The notes under the pieces: generated by a model | Database searches by the model: none | What the model was told of the DNA's origin: nothing | Seen by the model: the letters and a program-made list of their open reading frames with translations, nothing else | Shown: positions 2,343 to 9,348 of the stretch, piece after piece | How positions within the stretch are numbered: position 1 is the first letter of the stretch | Layout of the letters: every line of letters starts with the position of its first letter | Made by a program: the position numbers and the translations under genes | Assembly: GCA_025829515.1 (NCBI GenBank) | Contig: GCA_025829515.1_4865.1 | Reading direction: 5' to 3' (one strand) | Length of the DNA: 64,000 nucleotides | Origin: a phage

Positions 2343-3245
2343 ATGTCGATTATCTTAAACTGGAAACAACAGTCAGGTCAGACTTTAGATTCCATTGAAA
2401 TCTATCGTTACGACAACCCTAGACAAAGTGTTAACCCAGTAGCACCGGGGGAACCCATTGTAACACTACCAGGTAACACAACGACGTACGAGGACAAGAC
2501 CACCGAAGCGTATAAAACGTATCAATATCGCATCGTGGCGGTAAAGGGCACTGAAAAGGTTATGGGGCTGCCGATTGTACAGGGCGACTTTCCAATGACA
2601 GGGCCCGGCCCACAGGAACTTATTCGTGGCGATTGGCATCGTGGCTACTTTGGCACACTGACAAACAAAGAATTTATTCTTAACCATGCCGAGCTGAATG
2701 GTTTAATTGGCTTTAATGCCTGGAACCAAGCTCCAACATTGTTCCATAAATTCGTTTTCAAAGGACGCATTCTGTTCATTCCTGACACGGTGACCCGTTT
2801 AGGGACGTCGTGGGAAGAACAATACCGGCAAGGTCTGGCCTGGGGAACAGATGACTACGGTTTCCCGCCAGGGGGCGTCACTACCACTAACCAGCGTCGG
2901 ACATTTAATAAAGACGGTTACGAGTATGTGGTACGCTTGCCTCGACTCGGAGACTACAGTTATGGGCACAGCACCTACCTAAGCAGCGGTGGTTATTTTC
3001 AAGACGGCGAGTGGCACAACACGTTCGCAAGCTTGTTCCGGTACGCGGGCGTCGTAAGACGTTTTGGCGACTTACCGATGCGCTCCGGCGGTAGTCCAAC
3101 CGATTCAAGCGCAACATTGTTTGCCAACGGTCGTGACATCTACAACGCCTGGTACTATCGCAGCAACTCACCAGACTCACCATCGTATACCTATTCGACC
3201 GATAGCGCGTCGGTAGTCCACGTTATCGAATTGGTTCTTAGCTAA
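2343..3245 (+). CDS. putative tail fiber / adhesin paralog with Ig/FN3-like N-terminal module (300 aa)
   Basis: ATG 3 nt after the previous stop, GGAG RBS. Paralog of ORF 1341; central block shared with ORF 41. Confidence 0.5.
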   Translation: MSIILNWKQQSGQTLDSIEIYRYDNPRQSVNPVAPGEPIVTLPGNTTTYEDKTTEAYKTYQYRIVAVKGTEKVMGLPIVQGDFPMTGPGPQELIRGDWHRGYFGTLTNKEFILNHAELNGLIGFNAWNQAPTLFHKFVFKGRILFIPDTVTRLGTSWEEQYRQGLAWGTDDYGFPPGGVTTTNQRRTFNKDGYEYVVRLPRLGDYSYGHSTYLSSGGYFQDGEWHNTFASLFRYAGVVRRFGDLPMRSGGSPTDSSATLFANGRDIYNAWYYRSNSPDSPSYTYSTDSASVVHVIELVLS

Positions 3246-3256
3246 CAGGAGCTAAT

Positions 3257-3553
3257 ATGGGGTTTTACTCATCCACTGCACTTGAGCTGTTGTGTCGGCT
3301 CATTCAGCGGGATAATCCCCAACACGCAGGTCGAATCAGCGCAGATTCAATTGGGGAGTGTACGATCTATTACGATAAGTCGTTAAGCAGTAACACAGTG
3401 GCCGATGTTACCACCGCATCCAACTCGTTCGCTAATAAAGCGTACGGCCGCGCGGTTATCCAAACTGACGTCGAAGCAGCTGGAGTTAAAGGGATAGCGT
3501 ACTTCACCATAACAGCTAAAAATAGGCCCCGAAGGGCCTATTTTCTTTTTTAG
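3257..3553 (+). CDS. short N-terminal-module paralog of the receptor-binding family (98 aa), possibly a truncated remnant
   Basis: ATG with AGGAG RBS. Contains the RDNPQ and GECTIYYD motifs found at the N-termini of ORFs 3563 and 41. Its last codons overlap a strong terminator hairpin. Confidence 0.35.
   Translation: MGFYSSTALELLCRLIQRDNPQHAGRISADSIGECTIYYDKSLSSNTVADVTTASNSFANKAYGRAVIQTDVEAAGVKGIAYFTITAKNRPRRAYFLF
3523..3551 (+). terminator. rho-independent terminator (stem TAGGCCC / GGGCCTA, T-run)
   Basis: 7-bp GC-rich stem, CGAA loop, followed by TTTTCTTTTTT. Confidence 0.6.
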
Positions 3554-3562
3554 GACGTTGCA

Positions 3563-4882
3563 ATGATCAACTATAACAAACCTGTCATGCAGCTGGTTTG
3601 GGATCAGATTAATCGTGATAACCCGCAGCTCAAGAAACCACTCAACGCAACCAACGTGGCGTTATTACAAGGTCCTTTAACCAATGCCTTGCGCGATGGC
3701 CGCAACAGCCGTATAGTGGTAAACGGATTACAGGGTGGCGGTTACAGCGGTAAGATGGACATCTACTACGACCGCTTAAACCTTTCGCAGTATTTTAAAG
3801 GCGTCAGCGTACCGGTTAAAGTACCTTATCGGGCGACGTCCTACCGCGACATCATCGACCGGATTTCCGCAGCTTGTGGGCTGGTGCTTACTGCTGACGA
3901 TTTAACGTATCCTGACAGCCAGTTTGCAATGATCACTGTGGCAACGGGCGATCGGACGGTGGCGATTAAATCGGATAACCCCGCATTCACGGGTCACATT
4001 CCTATTAGCTTTATTCGTGAAGAGCCCAGCTTTGCCGACTTGTACCACACCACCGAAACCGGAGCTTGGGAACCCATGGATGTTTACAGCACGGTCTATC
4101 GACTCGACTGGAGCATGTACACCCAACAGATAATCAATATTCCAATGGGTACCCCGCTGCGACTAAACAGTAACTCGTACATGACCCAGTTCATCGCGGC
4201 GCTGTCGGCATGGTCGGGCATCCCGTTCACTATCGGTAATGCTGCTACCGATAACCCGTATGACCTCTATGGGTATGTCGCTACACGCAATAACAACCCA
4301 GGCTTAGACCCTGATATGCGTGGGGAGTACAATTACTGCGTGAAGTTGACGCCACCTGAGGATATGGGTAATCTCCGTCGTCCGTTCTTCTTGCACTTTG
4401 GTCCGAAAAATAACGTGGCCTATTTGGCGCAGGAAAAGGACGTCGAACGTTATGCGCGTTACATGAGGTTCCGGGAAACCAGCTCAAATTCGATGAGCGT
4501 CACGTTGTATCAAAACGAGTACGTGTTGACTCGGGCAGAATCGCCTGAAACTGCGGATGATTTAACGGGTTCCCCGTATGGCACTCGATACTGTACCGGG
4601 AGTATTCGACGGCTGATGCAACACGCGTTTCCGACCGAAGAGATGTTCCAAGAAAGTATTGCTAACCGACGTCGGGTACTGTACCACACTGCTTACACCA
4701 CCACGACATCAGCTATTACTTACCAGGGACTATACCGTAACGGATACCAATCCAAACAAATGACGAGCCTCTACTCGAATTACTGTAACTATTTCATCTA
4801 TTACGACCCAAGCAAAGGCGGCTATATGGTCTACAGTCCATATAGCAAAACCGCCCCGGTCCCTTGGTATCCAGCGCTATAG
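3563..4882 (+). CDS. putative tail fiber / receptor-binding protein (439 aa)
   Basis: ATG with RBS. N-terminal RDNPQ...YYDRLNLSQYF module; C-terminal YYDPSKGGYMVYSPYSKTAPVPW module shared with ORF 4897. Confidence 0.5.
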   Translation: MINYNKPVMQLVWDQINRDNPQLKKPLNATNVALLQGPLTNALRDGRNSRIVVNGLQGGGYSGKMDIYYDRLNLSQYFKGVSVPVKVPYRATSYRDIIDRISAACGLVLTADDLTYPDSQFAMITVATGDRTVAIKSDNPAFTGHIPISFIREEPSFADLYHTTETGAWEPMDVYSTVYRLDWSMYTQQIINIPMGTPLRLNSNSYMTQFIAALSAWSGIPFTIGNAATDNPYDLYGYVATRNNNPGLDPDMRGEYNYCVKLTPPEDMGNLRRPFFLHFGPKNNVAYLAQEKDVERYARYMRFRETSSNSMSVTLYQNEYVLTRAESPETADDLTGSPYGTRYCTGSIRRLMQHAFPTEEMFQESIANRRRVLYHTAYTTTTSAITYQGLYRNGYQSKQMTSLYSNYCNYFIYYDPSKGGYMVYSPYSKTAPVPWYPAL

Positions 4883-4896
4883 ACTAAGGTGTCACC

Positions 4897-7074
4897 ATGT
4901 CCTACACTCCTGATTTAGTGGCGACCGTGATTCGGTCGCTCAACCGTAAAAACGCGGTCGCCAAAGCAGTAGACCCCGCTAACGTACGCCTGGTGTCCGT
5001 GGCGCATCGTGACGAAAAAACCCTAGACGTCACACTGACAGGGGGTCCGGGGTATTCAAGTTACGGTCAAATTACGGCCCAAGTCACGAAGCAAAATATT
5101 GCTGATTATTTCGCCAAGGTTAAGTTGGATGCCATTCCCACTTGTGCGTCCATCCACGAACTGTTGCCGCATTTAGACACTCTACTAGGGATTACCTTTT
5201 TAACTGACGACTTTGAAGACCTGCCTATCACTTGGACAAACAATGCTGCGTGTATCACGTTCCAGGCGAAACAGACAAGTCTTATCTGGTACGGCAGCCA
5301 AACGCTAGATGTGATAAACGGTGACGTGGATATCAACACCGTCTACACTGTTACCAACATCATTCTCACGCTAAAGGCTGCGAATAAACAGCAGTGGATT
5401 AACTTCTACTCTAATGCAACCAAACGGATCGTGGATCTTGATAAAGTCGATGTCAGCTCCCCGATGTCCCCGGAGGATATAGGCCAAACCTCTGCGTATA
5501 ACAGCGTCGTAGCTTTGACCGCTAGACCGGGGAGCGGGATGTTTGGAACGAAGTATGTGTTCTTTTCACGTAACAAACTCGAGACATATGCAGGCAAAAC
5601 CACATACGTCCCGGATGATTTCACCGGTAGCCTGCACGATGCTCTGGCCATCGAGACACTCGGCATTCGGAGTGTTTTTGATGTAAACGAAATTGCTCCT
5701 GTAGAGAACCTGGCAGGCGAGTGGCCGAGACAAGTGCAATTGGCACCCGTAGAGGGTTCGTACAAAGTCATGGGCAGTGCCACGTTGAATGTGGCACGCT
5801 ATCAAGATAACGAGCAAACCCTTAACCTGAACTACACAACTACGTCGCAACTTTCGGACAGCTACTGGGCCACAACGTTGACCAACCATGCGGCGTGCGG
5901 GCGTTTGTTTGTTAACGTGACCGTAGATGCGGGGGCTTTCGTTTATCGCGACAGCAACCTGAAACCGACGTTCGTTATCGACGAATTGCCGCAAATTGGC
6001 GAGGTGGTTTGGAACTTCGTTAACCGGGGAACCATTCTTGGTCGTGGTGGTTCGGGTATGGTCTACTCTATGCCTGCGAACACATCAGCGGACGGAGCTG
6101 ACGCAATCCACATTACCGATGCCTTCCGCGGCAAAGTCACCATCGAAAACTACGGCACCATCGCCGGAGGTGGGGGCGGGGGCGACTACTATGCGTTTAG
6201 CACCACCAAGATCGGTGGAGCTGGTGGTGCGCCACTCGGGACAGGCGCGGTGGTGCCCAGCGGCACCAATAACCGTAACGGCTTAGCTGGGTCCCGTGAC
6301 AAAGGCGGTGCTACTCAGTTAGTCGTCGCACAATTTACCGGCTACCAGAGTCGCTACTATGGCGGTCCGGGTGGGGATTGGGGCCAGCCGGGACGATATA
6401 CAGCGTTCGAGCAATGGAACACCCCGGCTACCGGCTCGCCGATCTATGTCTACGGTCGTGAAGACGGGATGTCATGGACTCGCCCTGGGATGGCAGGCGA
6501 AGCCGTCGGTGGGAATAAAAGTATCGTCAACTGGGTATCCGTCGGAACGGTGAAACCGAATGTCACCAACGAGTACCAAGAGTTCCTCGACTACCTCGCA
6601 GATTTAGATGCCAACCGATTGGCCAGTGCGGATGGGATAGATAAAGTCACCGACCCAACCAAGCCTGTAGTTGTGGAGTTCTTAGGTACGATTATTTCAG
6701 GTACGCTGTTCCAAAAGCAAAACATACCCGGCGGTTTGGTGGGAACACCATACGGCGATGCTGTAGCCAACTTACCAGCCACCACATTGTTTGGTATCAT
6801 GGCACACTGTGTATCGGAGTTTGATATTGTGCACGACACTTGGCGTTACAACCGCGCGGTGATGTTCACGCTAAAACCCGCACCTACCGGGGCGATTAGC
6901 CTCGCTGTGGAACGCAACCGGGTGAAATCGGCTACCAGTAGTGCACCGGTGGAGAAGTTCTACGTCGATCGCTTCGTGTATTACGATGCGTATCTCGGTA
7001 AAATGATGGAATGTAATCCGTATACCAAATCTGCCCCTAAACCGTGGGTGCGGCCAACGATACCGTTATCGTAA
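4897..7074 (+). CDS. putative tail fiber protein with Gly-rich segment (725 aa)
   Basis: ATG with AAGGTG RBS. Gly-rich stretch (GGGGGGDYY...GGAGGAPLGTG); C-terminal YYDAYLGKMMECNPYTKSAPKPW module paralogous to the end of ORF 3563. Confidence 0.5.
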   Translation: MSYTPDLVATVIRSLNRKNAVAKAVDPANVRLVSVAHRDEKTLDVTLTGGPGYSSYGQITAQVTKQNIADYFAKVKLDAIPTCASIHELLPHLDTLLGITFLTDDFEDLPITWTNNAACITFQAKQTSLIWYGSQTLDVINGDVDINTVYTVTNIILTLKAANKQQWINFYSNATKRIVDLDKVDVSSPMSPEDIGQTSAYNSVVALTARPGSGMFGTKYVFFSRNKLETYAGKTTYVPDDFTGSLHDALAIETLGIRSVFDVNEIAPVENLAGEWPRQVQLAPVEGSYKVMGSATLNVARYQDNEQTLNLNYTTTSQLSDSYWATTLTNHAACGRLFVNVTVDAGAFVYRDSNLKPTFVIDELPQIGEVVWNFVNRGTILGRGGSGMVYSMPANTSADGADAIHITDAFRGKVTIENYGTIAGGGGGGDYYAFSTTKIGGAGGAPLGTGAVVPSGTNNRNGLAGSRDKGGATQLVVAQFTGYQSRYYGGPGGDWGQPGRYTAFEQWNTPATGSPIYVYGREDGMSWTRPGMAGEAVGGNKSIVNWVSVGTVKPNVTNEYQEFLDYLADLDANRLASADGIDKVTDPTKPVVVEFLGTIISGTLFQKQNIPGGLVGTPYGDAVANLPATTLFGIMAHCVSEFDIVHDTWRYNRAVMFTLKPAPTGAISLAVERNRVKSATSSAPVEKFYVDRFVYYDAYLGKMMECNPYTKSAPKPWVRPTIPLS

Positions 7075-7118
7075 TTTAACGAGGAACTTGACGGGTTTAA
7101 AGCCTGAAGATAATCCAT

Positions 7119-7152
7119 GCCCTCTTCCCCACGGGGAAGAGGCTTTCTTTTT
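7119..7152 (+). terminator. rho-independent terminator (CCTCTTCC...GGAAGAGG, T-run)
   Basis: GC-rich hairpin followed by CTTTCTTTTT; lies inside the 5' end of the track ORF 7117, which argues against that start. Confidence 0.6.
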
Positions 7153-7179
7153 ATGACCCTATCAACTCAGGAGGTTATC

Positions 7180-7770
7180 GTGGTCGATCGTTGGAGTAAA
7201 GAGGGCATTATTCGTGCCAAAGTAAACATCGAAGCCGGTTACGTTAATAACCCGAAAGATTTGGGCAAAGCAACGAACCGCGGTGTCACCGAACTCACTG
7301 CGCGCGAATATGGCTATAAAGGGGATATGCGTGACCTGAGCTTAGAAATCGCGTTAGACATTTACAACAAGCTCTGGTGGCAGCGGATGCGTTTAGACCA
7401 GATTATGAAAATGAATGTCCTGCTAGCTGACCGAATGTTTGATTTCGGCATTAACGCAGGACGCGGTAACTGTATCAAGTCCCTGCAACGTATTCTGAAC
7501 GTATTAAACCGTCAGGGTAAACTATACGATGATATCGATGCCGATGGTGGTATCGGGCCACGTACGTTAACAGCGTTAGAAGGCTTCATCAAAGCCCGTG
7601 GGGAAGAGGGCCTGAATCGACTGATGTTCGCTTTAACCTGTCATCAGGTTGCGTACTACACGGAAATCAGTGAAGGGCGTGAGGATAACGAAGAGTTTAC
7701 TTACGGCTGGTATGGCCGCGTCTATCAGGAAATGCCAGACTACGTGGCTAAGTTGGGGATGTGCAAATGA
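7180..7770 (+). CDS. GH108-family lysozyme-like protein with probable C-terminal peptidoglycan-binding domain
   Basis: Start revised to GTG at 7180 (AGGAGG RBS 5 nt upstream; the track start at 7117 would include the terminator). N-terminal EAGYVNNPKDLGKATNRGVT...GDMRDL...IY...LWW matches the conserved GH108 N-terminal signature from established knowledge of that family. Confidence 0.6.
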   Translation: MVDRWSKEGIIRAKVNIEAGYVNNPKDLGKATNRGVTELTAREYGYKGDMRDLSLEIALDIYNKLWWQRMRLDQIMKMNVLLADRMFDFGINAGRGNCIKSLQRILNVLNRQGKLYDDIDADGGIGPRTLTALEGFIKARGEEGLNRLMFALTCHQVAYYTEISEGREDNEEFTYGWYGRVYQEMPDYVAKLGMCK

Positions 7771-7958
7771 AACAGAATTGGTTTGCTGCCTTAATGAAAG
7801 CTATCTGGCGCGCCCTTGTTTTTGCCGCAAGGAGAAAACGTAATGACCCACCGTCCAACTCCGCCTAAGTTCCCCGAAGTACAAACCGTTCCGGAAACGT
7901 ATTACGATTCTGGGTTCTTCAAACTATTACGCGCGATCTTCTGTCGGAGGGTAAAGCC

Positions 7959-8051
7959 ATGCAATACGACAACGACGACTGGCCGAAAGGCTTAATGCCC
8001 ATTTTACTGGGATTAATGGTCCTCACGATGCTCGTGCGTTATATGACGTGA
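7959..8051 (+). CDS. tiny predicted membrane peptide (30 aa), holin-like candidate
   Basis: ATG with GGAGGG RBS; MQYDNDDWPKGLMPILLGLMVLTMLVRYMT has a single hydrophobic helix. Not in the ORF track (too short). An alternative 50-aa ORF at 7843-7995 in another frame competes. Confidence 0.2.
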   Translation: MQYDNDDWPKGLMPILLGLMVLTMLVRYMT

Positions 8052-8058
8052 GGTCAGT

Positions 8059-8700
8059 ATGGAAGCACTTAAGTATAAGTTGTTAGAGAAGCCGTGGTTT
8101 ATCCTCACGGATGATTTCCATTTCGAGTTTACGTTGCGCAGCCTCTATCGTGAACACGCCGGAATGGATGCGATGGTAGCATTAGCAGGTCTGCATCCGG
8201 ATACCCCGTTATGGGTAACGGTACCGAAAGGATTTGTGACGGACCTGGCAAGCATTCCAGAAGCGTTACGTCCTATCCTGCATCCGGATGGGCCTTGGGC
8301 TGCTGCCGCTTGTGTGCATGATTTGTTTTACCAGAAACGTTCATCGGTAGGCTTTTACCCTGACACTGTCGAAGGTAATCTATCTCGTGCATGTGACAAA
8401 ACATTCGCTGACCTGATGTTCTTACGTATCATGGAGGCATTAGGCGTTGACACCTTTATTCGTAAGTCCTTCTACCATGCCGTTCACGAGTTTGGTTGGC
8501 CGTCCTATGTAGACGATAACTCTAAGGTGGTTTATAGCCGGCCGGTAGAAAAGACGTTGTCCTATAATCGCAACTACCTGTTCTTTAGAACGTCGCGTAC
8601 GTTAGCGATTCCTGAACACGAACGTGTTGACATTACTAATGGGCAACCGGTAAACGTGCAGTATTTGAATATCAAACGTGCGTTCCTGACTACCCCTTAA
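8059..8700 (+). CDS. DUF1353-like phage protein (213 aa)
   Basis: VPKGFVTDLASIP...AAAACVHDLFY resembles the DUF1353 signature (VPxGFxTDGASIP...HD); GAGG RBS. Confidence 0.5.
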   Translation: MEALKYKLLEKPWFILTDDFHFEFTLRSLYREHAGMDAMVALAGLHPDTPLWVTVPKGFVTDLASIPEALRPILHPDGPWAAAACVHDLFYQKRSSVGFYPDTVEGNLSRACDKTFADLMFLRIMEALGVDTFIRKSFYHAVHEFGWPSYVDDNSKVVYSRPVEKTLSYNRNYLFFRTSRTLAIPEHERVDITNGQPVNVQYLNIKRAFLTTP

Positions 8701-9317: not shown

Positions 9318-9348
9318 CTTACCCACTCCCCTTACGGGAGTGGGTAAG
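9318..9348. terminator. bidirectional terminator hairpin (CTTACCCACTCCC / GGGAGTGGGTAAG)
   Basis: Perfect 13-bp stem, 5-nt loop, flanked by A-rich 5' and T-rich 3' tracts; sits between convergent genes 8710(+) and 9351(-). Confidence 0.6.

What the first reader, a model, noticed from the sequence alone, without database searches (positions are those of the whole stretch)
3257..3553. Truncated paralog whose coding end coincides with a strong terminator
The 98-aa ORF carries only the N-terminal module of its neighbours, and its last codons run through the TAGGCCC/GGGCCTA terminator hairpin and T-run. It may be a decaying gene fragment, or a deliberately short N-domain-only protein (for example an assembly competitor or chaperone).
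Basis: seen in the sequence. Interest (0 to 1): 0.4.

Follow-up and report, generated by a model that had tools for sequence, protein, structure and literature searches.

The report
Decaying mosaic gene remnant before terminator
The 98-codon reading frame is a leftover junction scar made of pieces of three neighbouring virion-fibre genes of a giant Salmonella phage; it runs into a conserved transcription terminator only because a one-base deletion removed its original stop codon, and most related phages have deleted most of it, so it is an ordinary decaying fragment.

Summary
The window comes from an SPN3US-like Salmonella jumbo phage (Seoulvirus). The ORF at 3257-3553 and the hairpin plus T-run at 3519-3551 are both real.

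The ORF is a mosaic, not a simple N-terminal truncation:
- Codons 1-22 match the start of one cassette fibre gene (intact in phage JN03).
- Codons 23-41 match the start of the gp151-type gene, with a 29-codon in-frame deletion.
- Codons ~45-83 are the in-frame C-terminus of a 275-aa DUF7941 protein (SPN3US gp144 / Erwinia phage Phobos gp143 type). That gene's own terminator and the spacer before the gp154 orthologue follow.

A 1-nt deletion near codons 83-85 bypasses the ancestral TAA (3517-3519). Reading therefore continues through the hairpin to TAG 3551-3553.

Relatives show a nested decay series of 127, 98/91/106, 30 and 11 codons. About 30 GenBank relatives, including the laboratory model SPN3US, carry a frameshifting 140-nt deletion. 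The hairpin stem is invariant, while its loop (TTCG, CGAA or TGAA) and the T-run length change the encoded tail.

Substitutions among remnant alleles are 9 nonsynonymous to 1 synonymous. The neighbouring genes have omega 0.12-0.26.

Verdict: a gene remnant, the left junction scar of the gp154-gp155 cassette. Only the terminator and the ribosome-binding region of gp154 are kept in every allele. Low interest.

The parts
3247..3251 (+). Shine-Dalgarno AGGAG, inherited from the cassette fibre gene whose start the remnant keeps. The spacer TAACAGGAG...ATG is invariant in all alleles.
3257..3553 (+). The 98-codon ORF: a mosaic gene remnant (junction scar) between the orthologues of SPN3US gp153 and gp154.
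3257..3322 (+). Codons 1-22 (MGFYSSTALELLCRLIQRDNPQ). This is the 5' end of the 'fib504'-type cassette gene, which is intact in phage JN03 (21 of 22 residues identical). The switch of parent occurs at the conserved RDNP-coding motif.
3323..3379 (+). Codons 23-41 (HAGRISADSIG / ECTIYYDK), matching gp151-type codons 23-33 and 63-70. An 87-nt in-frame deletion of codons 34-62 is joined at the GGGG microhomology 3353-3356. The undeleted state is seen in the 127-aa allele P0003.
3380..3391 (+). Junction zone between the cassette-gene 5' part and the 3' part of the 275-aa DUF7941 gene (after the YY codons; ...TATTAC | ...CCGTTAAAC AGTAAC).
3389..3505 (+). Codons 45-83 (SNTVADV...GVKGIAYF). This is the in-frame C-terminus of a 275-280-aa DUF7941 protein of the SPN3US gp144 / Phobos gp143 type, 59-67% aa identity over these 39 codons. 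It corresponds to Pfam model positions 228-272 of 276.
3337..3476 (+). The 140 nt absent from SPN3US and about 30 other GenBank relatives. The deletion lies between CAGC repeats (equivalently 3341-3480), is not a multiple of 3, and leaves a 30-codon ORF.
3503..3511 (+). Site of the 1-nt deletion relative to the ancestral ...TAC TAC CAY TAT AAC AGC TAA (YYHYNS*). It shifts the frame.
   Evidence: sequence comparison with Phobos gp143 and SPLA5c gene 151
3517..3519 (+). Ancestral stop codon TAA of the parent gene, now out of frame. It lies 43 nt before the ATG of the next gene, the same distance as in Phobos.
3519..3544 (+). Terminator hairpin: 11-bp stem and loop CGAA (3530-3533). The stem is invariant in all Seoulvirus alleles. 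The loop is TTCG, CGAA (its reverse complement) or TGAA.
3545..3551 (+). C + T6 run after the hairpin. Its length varies by 1 T among relatives, which moves the ORF's stop (98 or 106 aa).
3552..3565 (+). AGGACGTTGCA ATG: ribosome-binding region and start of the gp154 orthologue (439 aa, 3563-4882). It is conserved as far as Erwinia phage Phobos.

Best explanation
The ORF is a non-functional mosaic remnant, a recombination or deletion scar. It sits at the right-hand end of the array of three-gene cassettes in the DUF7941 ('paralog family B') virion-protein cluster of a Seoulvirus.

Shown:
- Its 5' part is the start of cassette fibre genes: a JN03 fib504-type sequence up to the RDNP motif, then a gp151-type sequence with an 87-nt internal deletion.
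- Its 3' part is the in-frame C-terminal end of a 275-aa DUF7941 gene. That gene's own intrinsic terminator and the 43-nt spacer before gp154 follow, collinear with gp143-terminator-gp144 in Erwinia phage Phobos.
- A 1-nt deletion just upstream of the ancestral TAA shifts the frame, so the ORF runs through the hairpin and T-run to the next TAG.
- Related phages show further microhomology-mediated deletions, down to 30 and 11 codons.
- The remnant's coding sequence is not conserved at the protein level, whereas the hairpin stem and the gp154 ribosome-binding region are conserved.

Inferred:
- The scar is the left junction created when a gp154-gp155 cassette was joined illegitimately to a truncated cassette fibre gene. 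That cassette arrived with the 3' end and terminator of its upstream DUF7941 gene.
- Later exchanges at the conserved RDNP-coding stretch, and at the GAAKCAGC microhomology, swapped the 5' end and added or removed whole cassettes.
- The ORF keeps a good ribosome-binding site, so a peptide may be made. It is expected to be dispensable.
For: - Identity of the window and gene map.
- Mosaic parentage: BLASTP of the ORF against paralogues gave SPLA5c gene 151 C-terminus E = 7e-14, SPN3US gp151 (RefSeq tag ACQ60_gp115) N-terminus with a 29-residue gap E = 3e-12, Phobos gp143 C-terminus 24/39 identical, and JN03 504-aa protein N-terminus 22/32. Pfam matches ORF residues 39-83 to DUF7941 positions 228-272, while gp151, gp154 and gp155 match only positions 1-170.
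- Collinearity with Phobos gp143 3' end, terminator and gp144.
- Frameshift and bypassed TAA.
- Nested allele series (405, 317, 178 and 90 nt spacers; 127, 98, 91, 30 and 11 codons), with deletions at GGGG, CAGC and ATAGCG microhomologies. Further ends at 91, 98 and 106 aa set by the loop sequence and T-run length.
- Frequency: only 1 of about 36 GenBank relatives (SPLA5c) keeps the long form. About 30 records carry the 140-nt deletion and it is unannotated there.
- Relaxed selection: in the shared 56 codons, window versus P0003 gives 9 nonsynonymous to 1 synonymous change (omega ~2.8). The same pair gives 9:20 in gp154 and 21:43 in gp155 (omega 0.12-0.15). Fisher p = 0.002 and 0.0009.
- Older divergence of the 3' part from intact DUF7941 genes has omega 0.1-0.3, so the parent gene was once constrained.
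- Other scars of the same kind exist in the cluster: JN03 has gp151 5' with a stop fused to gp153 3', and SPLA3 joins gp151 nt 1-84 directly to the remnant.
Against: - The long alleles keep an intact start, ribosome-binding site and open frame. Both the gene fusion and the 87-nt deletion are in frame (roughly a 1 in 9 coincidence).
- The long form exists in several lineages, with at least 20 contigs in public assemblies. A lineage-specific role therefore cannot be excluded.
- The dN/dS contrast rests on about 10 substitutions.
- No expression data exist for any allele.
- The order of evolutionary events, and the donor of the 3' part, are inferred. No close donor was found; the best nucleotide identities were 72-79%.
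Confidence: 0.88

Rival explanations
1. The ORF encodes a functional small DUF7941-derived protein. It would be an assembly competitor or chain terminator ('cap') for the head-to-tail DUF7941 filaments, or a chaperone.
For: - Intact ATG and Shine-Dalgarno, and an open frame in the 127-, 98- and 91-aa alleles.
- SPLA5c annotates it as 'virion structural protein'.
- DUF7941 proteins are proposed to polymerise by docking the linker and C-terminal domain of one protomer on the N-terminal domain of the next (preprint 10.64898/2026.04.21.720040). A fragment could in principle interfere with that.
Against: - Only about 41 of 150-170 N-domain residues remain, there is no linker, and only the last ~45 residues of the C-domain remain.
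- About 30 relatives, including the laboratory phage SPN3US, have a frameshifting 140-nt deletion. EC001 keeps only 11 codons.
- dN/dS is about 1 or higher.
- The C-terminal tail changes radically (RR, FG or stop; 91, 98 or 106 aa) with the hairpin loop and T-run length.
- AF2 gives a mean pLDDT of 56, with the tail below 50. This is a weak test because the alignment has 3 sequences.
Confidence: 0.05
2. The overlap of ORF and terminator is regulatory. Ribosomes translating through the hairpin would melt it (anti-termination), or would couple translation to gp154, whose AGGA overlaps the TAG stop.
For: The stop TAG 3551-3553 overlaps the AGGA of gp154 and lies 9 nt before its ATG. Translation would cover the whole hairpin.
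Against: - The stop position differs among close relatives: inside the loop in SPLA5c, about 30 nt upstream of the hairpin in SPN3US-type alleles, and inside gp154 in the 106-aa variant. No particular arrangement is conserved.
- From general knowledge, SPN3US-like phages are chimalliviruses that transcribe inside a proteinaceous nucleus away from ribosomes. Co-transcriptional ribosome effects on termination are therefore not expected.
Confidence: 0.03
3. The remnant is retained because it serves as a homology anchor for gain, loss and exchange of fibre cassettes. This is second-order selection for host-range evolvability rather than a protein function.
For: - Its first ~66-84 nt co-vary with the upstream cassette, and the parent switches at the conserved RDNP-coding motif.
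- SPLA3 lost the gp151-153 cassette by joining gp151 nt 1-84 to the remnant.
- The same 3' remnant occurs behind two- and three-cassette arrays.
Against: - The same crossovers are expected as a by-product of any residual homology.
- EC001 has lost nearly all of it.
- Selection for evolvability cannot be shown from these data.
Confidence: 0.1

Closest known systems
DUF7941 (PF25613) virion proteins of chimalliviruses = SPN3US 'paralog family B' (gp138-154 etc.)
   Same: The ORF descends from family members. Its first 41 residues match N-terminal-domain residues 1-33 and 63-70 of gp151-type proteins. Residues 39-83 match positions 228-272 of the Pfam model. It lies inside the family's gene cluster.
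   Different: It scores below the Pfam gathering threshold (24.4 against 27 bits). It lacks most of the N-terminal globular domain, the whole linker and most of the C-terminal domain (domain layout from preprint 10.64898/2026.04.21.720040). It is not conserved among close relatives.
Gene remnants (pseudogenes) left by illegitimate and homologous recombination in mosaic phage genomes, for example at tail-fibre cassette boundaries
   Same: It is a chimera of parts of functional genes and is joined at microhomologies. It has a frameshift that bypasses the original stop, a nested series of deletions among relatives, and a relaxed substitution pattern.
   Different: It is still an open frame with a good ribosome-binding site in some lineages, so it is occasionally annotated as a gene (SPLA5c).
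Intrinsic (Rho-independent type) terminator
   Same: A GC-rich 11-bp stem, a tetraloop and a T-run. The stem is conserved, variation is confined to the loop, and the position is conserved upstream of gp154/gp144 across genera.
   Different: Activity with the phage-encoded RNA polymerases was not tested. In this allele the hairpin lies inside a fortuitous ORF instead of after a stop codon.

Membership tests
DUF7941 (PF25613) protein family | Whole-protein score at or above Pfam's gathering threshold (27 bits) | tested here: not met
   24.4 bits, E = 2.3e-5, one stretch only: residues 39-83 to model positions 228-272. The precomputed label in the protein database is PF25613, marked 'faint' for P0002.
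DUF7941 (PF25613) protein family | Complete N-terminal globular domain (about 150-170 residues), as shared by gp151, gp154 and gp155 | tested here: not met
   Only residues 1-33 and 34-41 align, to gp151 residues 1-33 and 63-70. Everything after the YYD motif is missing. The neighbours match model positions 1-153/170.
DUF7941 (PF25613) protein family | Linker plus C-terminal globular domain that dock on the next protomer (head-to-tail filament; Goslar gp22 model) | tested here: not met
   Model positions about 170-227 are absent and only the last ~45 positions are present. The domain scheme is taken from preprint 10.64898/2026.04.21.720040. Docking itself cannot be tested with these tools.
DUF7941 (PF25613) protein family | Common descent from family members | tested here: met
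   BLASTP E = 7e-14 to 4e-11 against family members. DNA collinearity with the Phobos gp143 3' end.
Gene remnant / pseudogene | Made of partial copies of intact genes, with disrupted ends (internal deletions, frameshift, loss of the original stop) | tested here: met
   An 87-nt deletion, a fusion junction, a 1-nt deletion, and the ancestral TAA 3517-3519 now out of frame.
Gene remnant / pseudogene | Length and presence polymorphism among close, viable relatives | tested here: met
   127, 106, 98, 91, 30 and 11 codons. The 30-codon frameshifted allele is in SPN3US and about 30 records.
Gene remnant / pseudogene | No purifying selection on the encoded protein | tested here: met
   9 nonsynonymous to 1 synonymous change, against 9:20 and 21:43 in the flanking genes; Fisher p = 0.002 and 0.0009. 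The counts are small.
Gene remnant / pseudogene | Product absent or without function | not testable with these tools
   Needs proteomics and a deletion mutant. The AF2 model has low confidence (pLDDT 56), which is inconclusive.
Intrinsic terminator | Stable GC-rich stem-loop immediately followed by a T-run | tested here: met
   An 11-bp perfect stem, -16.1 kcal/mol, z = -2.8, followed by C + T6.
Intrinsic terminator | Structure rather than sequence conserved among relatives | tested here: met
   The stem is invariant in 8 aligned Seoulvirus alleles while the loop is TTCG, CGAA or TGAA. Phobos keeps a hairpin at the same place with a shorter stem.
Intrinsic terminator | Terminates transcription in infected cells | not testable with these tools
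   Needs RNA 3'-end mapping.

The most novel reading that the evidence does not exclude
In the phage lineages that keep the 91-127-aa form, the peptide could be made and act as a modulator or cap of the DUF7941 head-to-tail filaments proposed to radiate from the baseplate. It fuses the first helix and strands of the N-domain to the last ~40 residues of the C-domain. It would tune filament length or composition, and its loss in other lineages would be an adaptive switch rather than decay.
Probability: 0.04. Interest if true: 0.5.

Novelty: new member of a known kind. Interest (0 to 1): 0.15.

Why it matters
The practical value is for annotation. This ORF, called 'virion structural protein' in SPLA5c, should be treated as a remnant. 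The terminator belongs to a lost DUF7941 gene and not to this ORF.

The locus also gives a clear, dated-by-states example of how the DUF7941 fibre and filament cluster of chimalliviruses is remodelled. Whole cassettes are gained and lost by crossovers in the conserved N-terminal coding stretch and at short microhomologies, and graded scars are left behind. This may help in interpreting host-range differences among otherwise ~97-99% identical Seoulvirus phages. It opens no new biological question by itself.

Tried and rejected
- Rfam scan of 2900-3900 at E <= 1: no RNA family.
- PDB sequence search with the gp154 orthologue: no hit.
- Exact-pattern scans for the terminator/gp154 junction. IMG/VR returned only SPN3US itself. 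Metagenomes returned two contigs that repeated known alleles. GTDB genomes returned none.
- AF2 of the ORF with a 3-sequence alignment: mean pLDDT 56, uninformative.
- Hits H39 and H41-H50 (11 records, all SPFM phages) looked like new alleles ('3-4 pieces'). The three records checked (SPFM10, 12, 20) turned out to be scrambled, with 60-nt lines in reversed order. In SPFM10, and by adjoining match blocks in SPFM20, the SPN3US-type 140-nt deletion junction is visible.
- A recent tandem duplicate of the resident gp144 3' end was considered as the source of the 3' half. It was rejected because the two are only ~69-71% identical at the nucleotide level over these 39 codons, about as far apart as gp144 is from the Erwinia phage genes.
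- Ribosome-mediated anti-termination was considered and judged unlikely (see rival explanations).
- The minus-strand ORF 3370-3510 (46 aa) lies almost entirely within the segment deleted in most relatives, so it was not pursued.

Full report
**What the window is.** The first 9 kb match SPN3US-like Salmonella jumbo phages (genus Seoulvirus) at 97-99% identity. Mapped onto SPN3US:

| Window ORF | SPN3US orthologue | Note |
|---|---|---|
| 41-1330 | gp151 | 3' part only; the start lies before the window |
| 1341-2339 | gp152 | |
| 2343-3245 | gp153 | |
| 3563-4882 | gp154 | 439 aa |
| 4897-7074 | gp155 | 725 aa |

These genes belong to the run gp138-154. Ali et al. 2017 (PMC5694885) named this run 'paralog family B' virion proteins. 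Pfam now calls the shared module DUF7941. A 2026 preprint on phage Goslar (10.64898/2026.04.21.720040) describes DUF7941 as an N-terminal globular domain, a linker and a C-terminal domain. It proposes that the proteins polymerise head-to-tail into long filaments attached to the peripheral baseplate. The cluster is built of seven ~275-aa DUF7941 genes (gp138-144), then two or three three-gene cassettes (a 470-500-aa DUF7941 'fibre', a ~330-aa gene and a ~300-aa gene), then gp154 and gp155.

**The observation.** The ORF at 3257-3553 exists, with an ATG, 98 codons and AGGAG at 3247-3251. The hairpin at 3519-3544 has an 11-bp perfect stem and loop CGAA, and is followed by C + T6. It is real and stable: -16.1 kcal/mol, z = -2.8. 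The last 11 codons run through it. The statement that the ORF carries 'only the N-terminal module of its neighbours' does not hold, as the next section shows.

**Anatomy of the ORF.**
- BLASTP against the paralogues, Pfam and DNA comparisons show four pieces.
  - Codons 1-22 (3257-3322) are 21/22 identical to the start of a 504-aa cassette protein that is intact in phage JN03.
  - Codons 23-33 and 34-41 (3323-3379) match gp151 residues 23-33 and 63-70 (HAGRISADSIG / ECTIYYD).
  - The 29 codons between those two stretches are missing. They are still present in a 127-aa allele found in public assemblies (P0003). The 87-nt deletion is joined at a GGGG microhomology.
  - Codons ~45-83 (3389-3505; SNTVADV...GVKGIAYF) are the in-frame C-terminus of a 275-280-aa DUF7941 protein. 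The same stretch in SPLA5c gene 151 (the gp144 orthologue) and in Erwinia phage Phobos gp143 ends ...GVKG.AYYHYNS*.
- The parent switches from the JN03 type to the gp151 type exactly at the conserved RDNP-coding stretch.
- Pfam aligns ORF residues 39-83 to model positions 228-272 of 276. The in-window neighbours gp154 and gp155, and gp151, match only positions 1-170.
- Downstream, the hairpin, the T-run and the spacer AGGACGTTGCA-ATG are collinear with the gp143-terminator-gp144 junction of Phobos.

**Why the ORF ends in the terminator.** The intact genes end TAC TAC CAY TAT AAC AGC TAA, and the hairpin starts a few bases later. The window reads TAC TTC ACC ATA ACA GCT AAA..., which is one base shorter. 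The ancestral TAA is still there at 3517-3519, 43 nt before the gp154 ATG as in Phobos, but it is now out of frame. Reading therefore continues through the hairpin and T-run to TAG 3551-3553. All Seoulvirus alleles share this 1-nt deletion.

The interval between the last cassette gene and gp154 exists in a nested series of states.

| Spacer (nt) | ORF (codons) | Where seen | Change |
|---|---|---|---|
| 405 | 127 | P0003; three assemblies | fullest state seen |
| 317 | 98 | this window; P0002 and others | 87-nt deletion |
| 318 | 91 | SPLA5c | loop TGAA gives an in-frame TGA |
| not measured | 106 | variant P0006 | apparently one extra T in the T-run (inferred from the protein) |
| 178 | 30 | SPN3US, SPFM phages, SPLA1a, SPLA3, phage 1252, Proteus phage 7 and others | 140-nt deletion between CAGC repeats, window 3337-3476; not a multiple of 3 |
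| 90 | 11 | E. coli phage EC001 | deletion at an ATAGCG microhomology |

Among about 36 GenBank relatives only SPLA5c keeps the long form. About 30 records carry the 140-nt deletion, and the remnant is not annotated there. SPN3US is a well-studied, viable laboratory phage, so the long form is dispensable.

**Selection.**
- In the 56 codons shared by all long alleles, the window and P0003 differ by 9 nonsynonymous and 1 synonymous changes (omega ~2.8).
- The same two genomes differ by 9:20 in gp154 and 21:43 in gp155 (omega 0.12-0.15). Fisher p = 0.002 and 0.0009. The numbers are small but the direction is clear.
- The nonsynonymous divergence of the remnant (0.065-0.073) equals the synonymous divergence of its neighbours.
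- The older divergence between the remnant's 3' part and intact DUF7941 genes has omega 0.1-0.3. The parent gene was therefore constrained before the fusion.
- The hairpin stem is invariant. Its loop is TTCG, CGAA (the reverse complement of TTCG, found in otherwise identical proteins P0001 and P0005) or TGAA. These change the encoded tail from FG to RR to stop.
- What is conserved in every allele, including EC001, is the hairpin, the T-run and the gp154 ribosome-binding region. The coding potential is not conserved.

**Origin (inferred).**
- Phobos has the order gp143 (275-aa type), terminator, gp144, gp145, then cassettes.
- Caitlin and JN03 have cassettes but no gp154/gp155 pair.
- Seoulviruses have their own intact gp144 with its own terminator, then the cassettes, then the remnant, terminator, gp154 and gp155.
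- The remnant's 3' part is only ~69-71% identical in nucleotides to the resident gp144 3' end over the 39 shared codons, about as far as the Erwinia genes are. It is therefore not a recent internal duplicate.
- The simplest reading is that a gp154-gp155 cassette came in together with the 3' end and terminator of its upstream gene. It was joined illegitimately, after the YY codons, to a gp151-type gene.
- Later events are visible directly.
  - The first 66 nt were exchanged at the RDNP motif when a third cassette was present upstream.
  - SPLA3 lost the gp151-153 cassette by joining gp151 nt 1-84 to the remnant at GAAKCAGC.
  - JN03 carries an independent, unannotated scar: gp151 5' with a stop fused to gp153 3'.
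  - SPLA5c has a hybrid cassette.
- Scars of this kind are thus routine in this cluster.

**Rivals.**
- A functional mini-protein (competitor, cap or chaperone) is not excluded for the lineages that keep the long form. It is contradicted by the allele series, the relaxed substitutions, the variable C-terminus, and the lack of a complete domain. AF2 gives low confidence (pLDDT 56), which is inconclusive with three sequences.
- A regulatory role for translation through the terminator is unlikely, because the stop position varies among near-identical phages. From general knowledge, these phages also transcribe inside a phage nucleus away from ribosomes.
- A role as a recombination anchor is compatible with the data but cannot be distinguished from a by-product of residual homology.

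**Verdict.** It is a decaying, mosaic gene remnant whose overlap with a conserved terminator is caused by a 1-nt deletion. It descends from the DUF7941 family but fails the family's membership criteria. Novelty is that of one more pseudogene-type scar, and interest is low (0.15). The useful outcomes are an annotation correction and a clear picture of cassette shuffling in the DUF7941 cluster.

Noticed in passing
GenBank LR535908 (L014), LR535911 (L015), LR535917 (L016); probably also the other SPFM records among hits H39 and H41-H50: These deposited SPFM phage sequences match the window as consecutive 60-nt blocks in the correct orientation but in reversed block order. The FASTA lines appear to have been reversed without reverse-complementing. 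Their CDS annotation is therefore meaningless.
   Followed up: partly
window 3530-3533 and the same position in L010, L012, L013, L001, L005: The terminator loop is polymorphic between TTCG and its exact reverse complement CGAA, on an invariant palindromic stem. This includes otherwise identical proteins (P0001 versus P0005). It suggests recurrent hairpin-loop inversion. TGAA is a third state.
   Followed up: partly
window 4897-7074 (gp155 orthologue): The 725-aa protein combines a DUF7941 N-terminal module with a T4 Gp38 adhesin-like domain (PF05268, E = 5.8e-18, residues 373-553). This fits a host-recognition role for the DUF7941 cluster, as in the Goslar preprint model. It sits oddly with the earlier assignment of SPN3US paralog family B (gp138-154, which adjoins gp155) to the head.
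   Followed up: no
L007 (Salmonella phage JN03) 8514-9011: An unannotated 498-nt gap holds another scar: the first ~390 nt of a gp151-type gene (97% identical to SPN3US, with an in-frame stop) fused to the last ~110 nt of a gp153-type gene. It sits directly before the intact 504-aa cassette gene. JN03 also lacks gp154 and gp155 altogether.
   Followed up: partly
L005 (SPLA5c) 7020-8094: The second gene of the last cassette is split into two ORFs (591 and 399 nt), and the window matches SPLA5c only from position 1824 onward. This indicates a recombinant gp149/gp152 hybrid with loss of gp150-gp151. SPLA5c and SPLA1a differ in sensitivity to O-antigen glucosylation (PMC10949491), and this locus is one of their differences.
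   Followed up: no
window 7121-7142 and 9318-9348: There are two further strong hairpins. One has a 9-bp stem plus T-run just after the gp155 orthologue and before the endolysin gene. The other is a 13-bp palindrome scored as a terminator on both strands, between convergent genes.
   Followed up: no
L009 (E. coli phage EC001) 9980-10069: In the 11-codon allele the deletion happens to restore the ancestral frame at the end (MGLYSALYHNS*), so the original TAA is used again.
   Followed up: no
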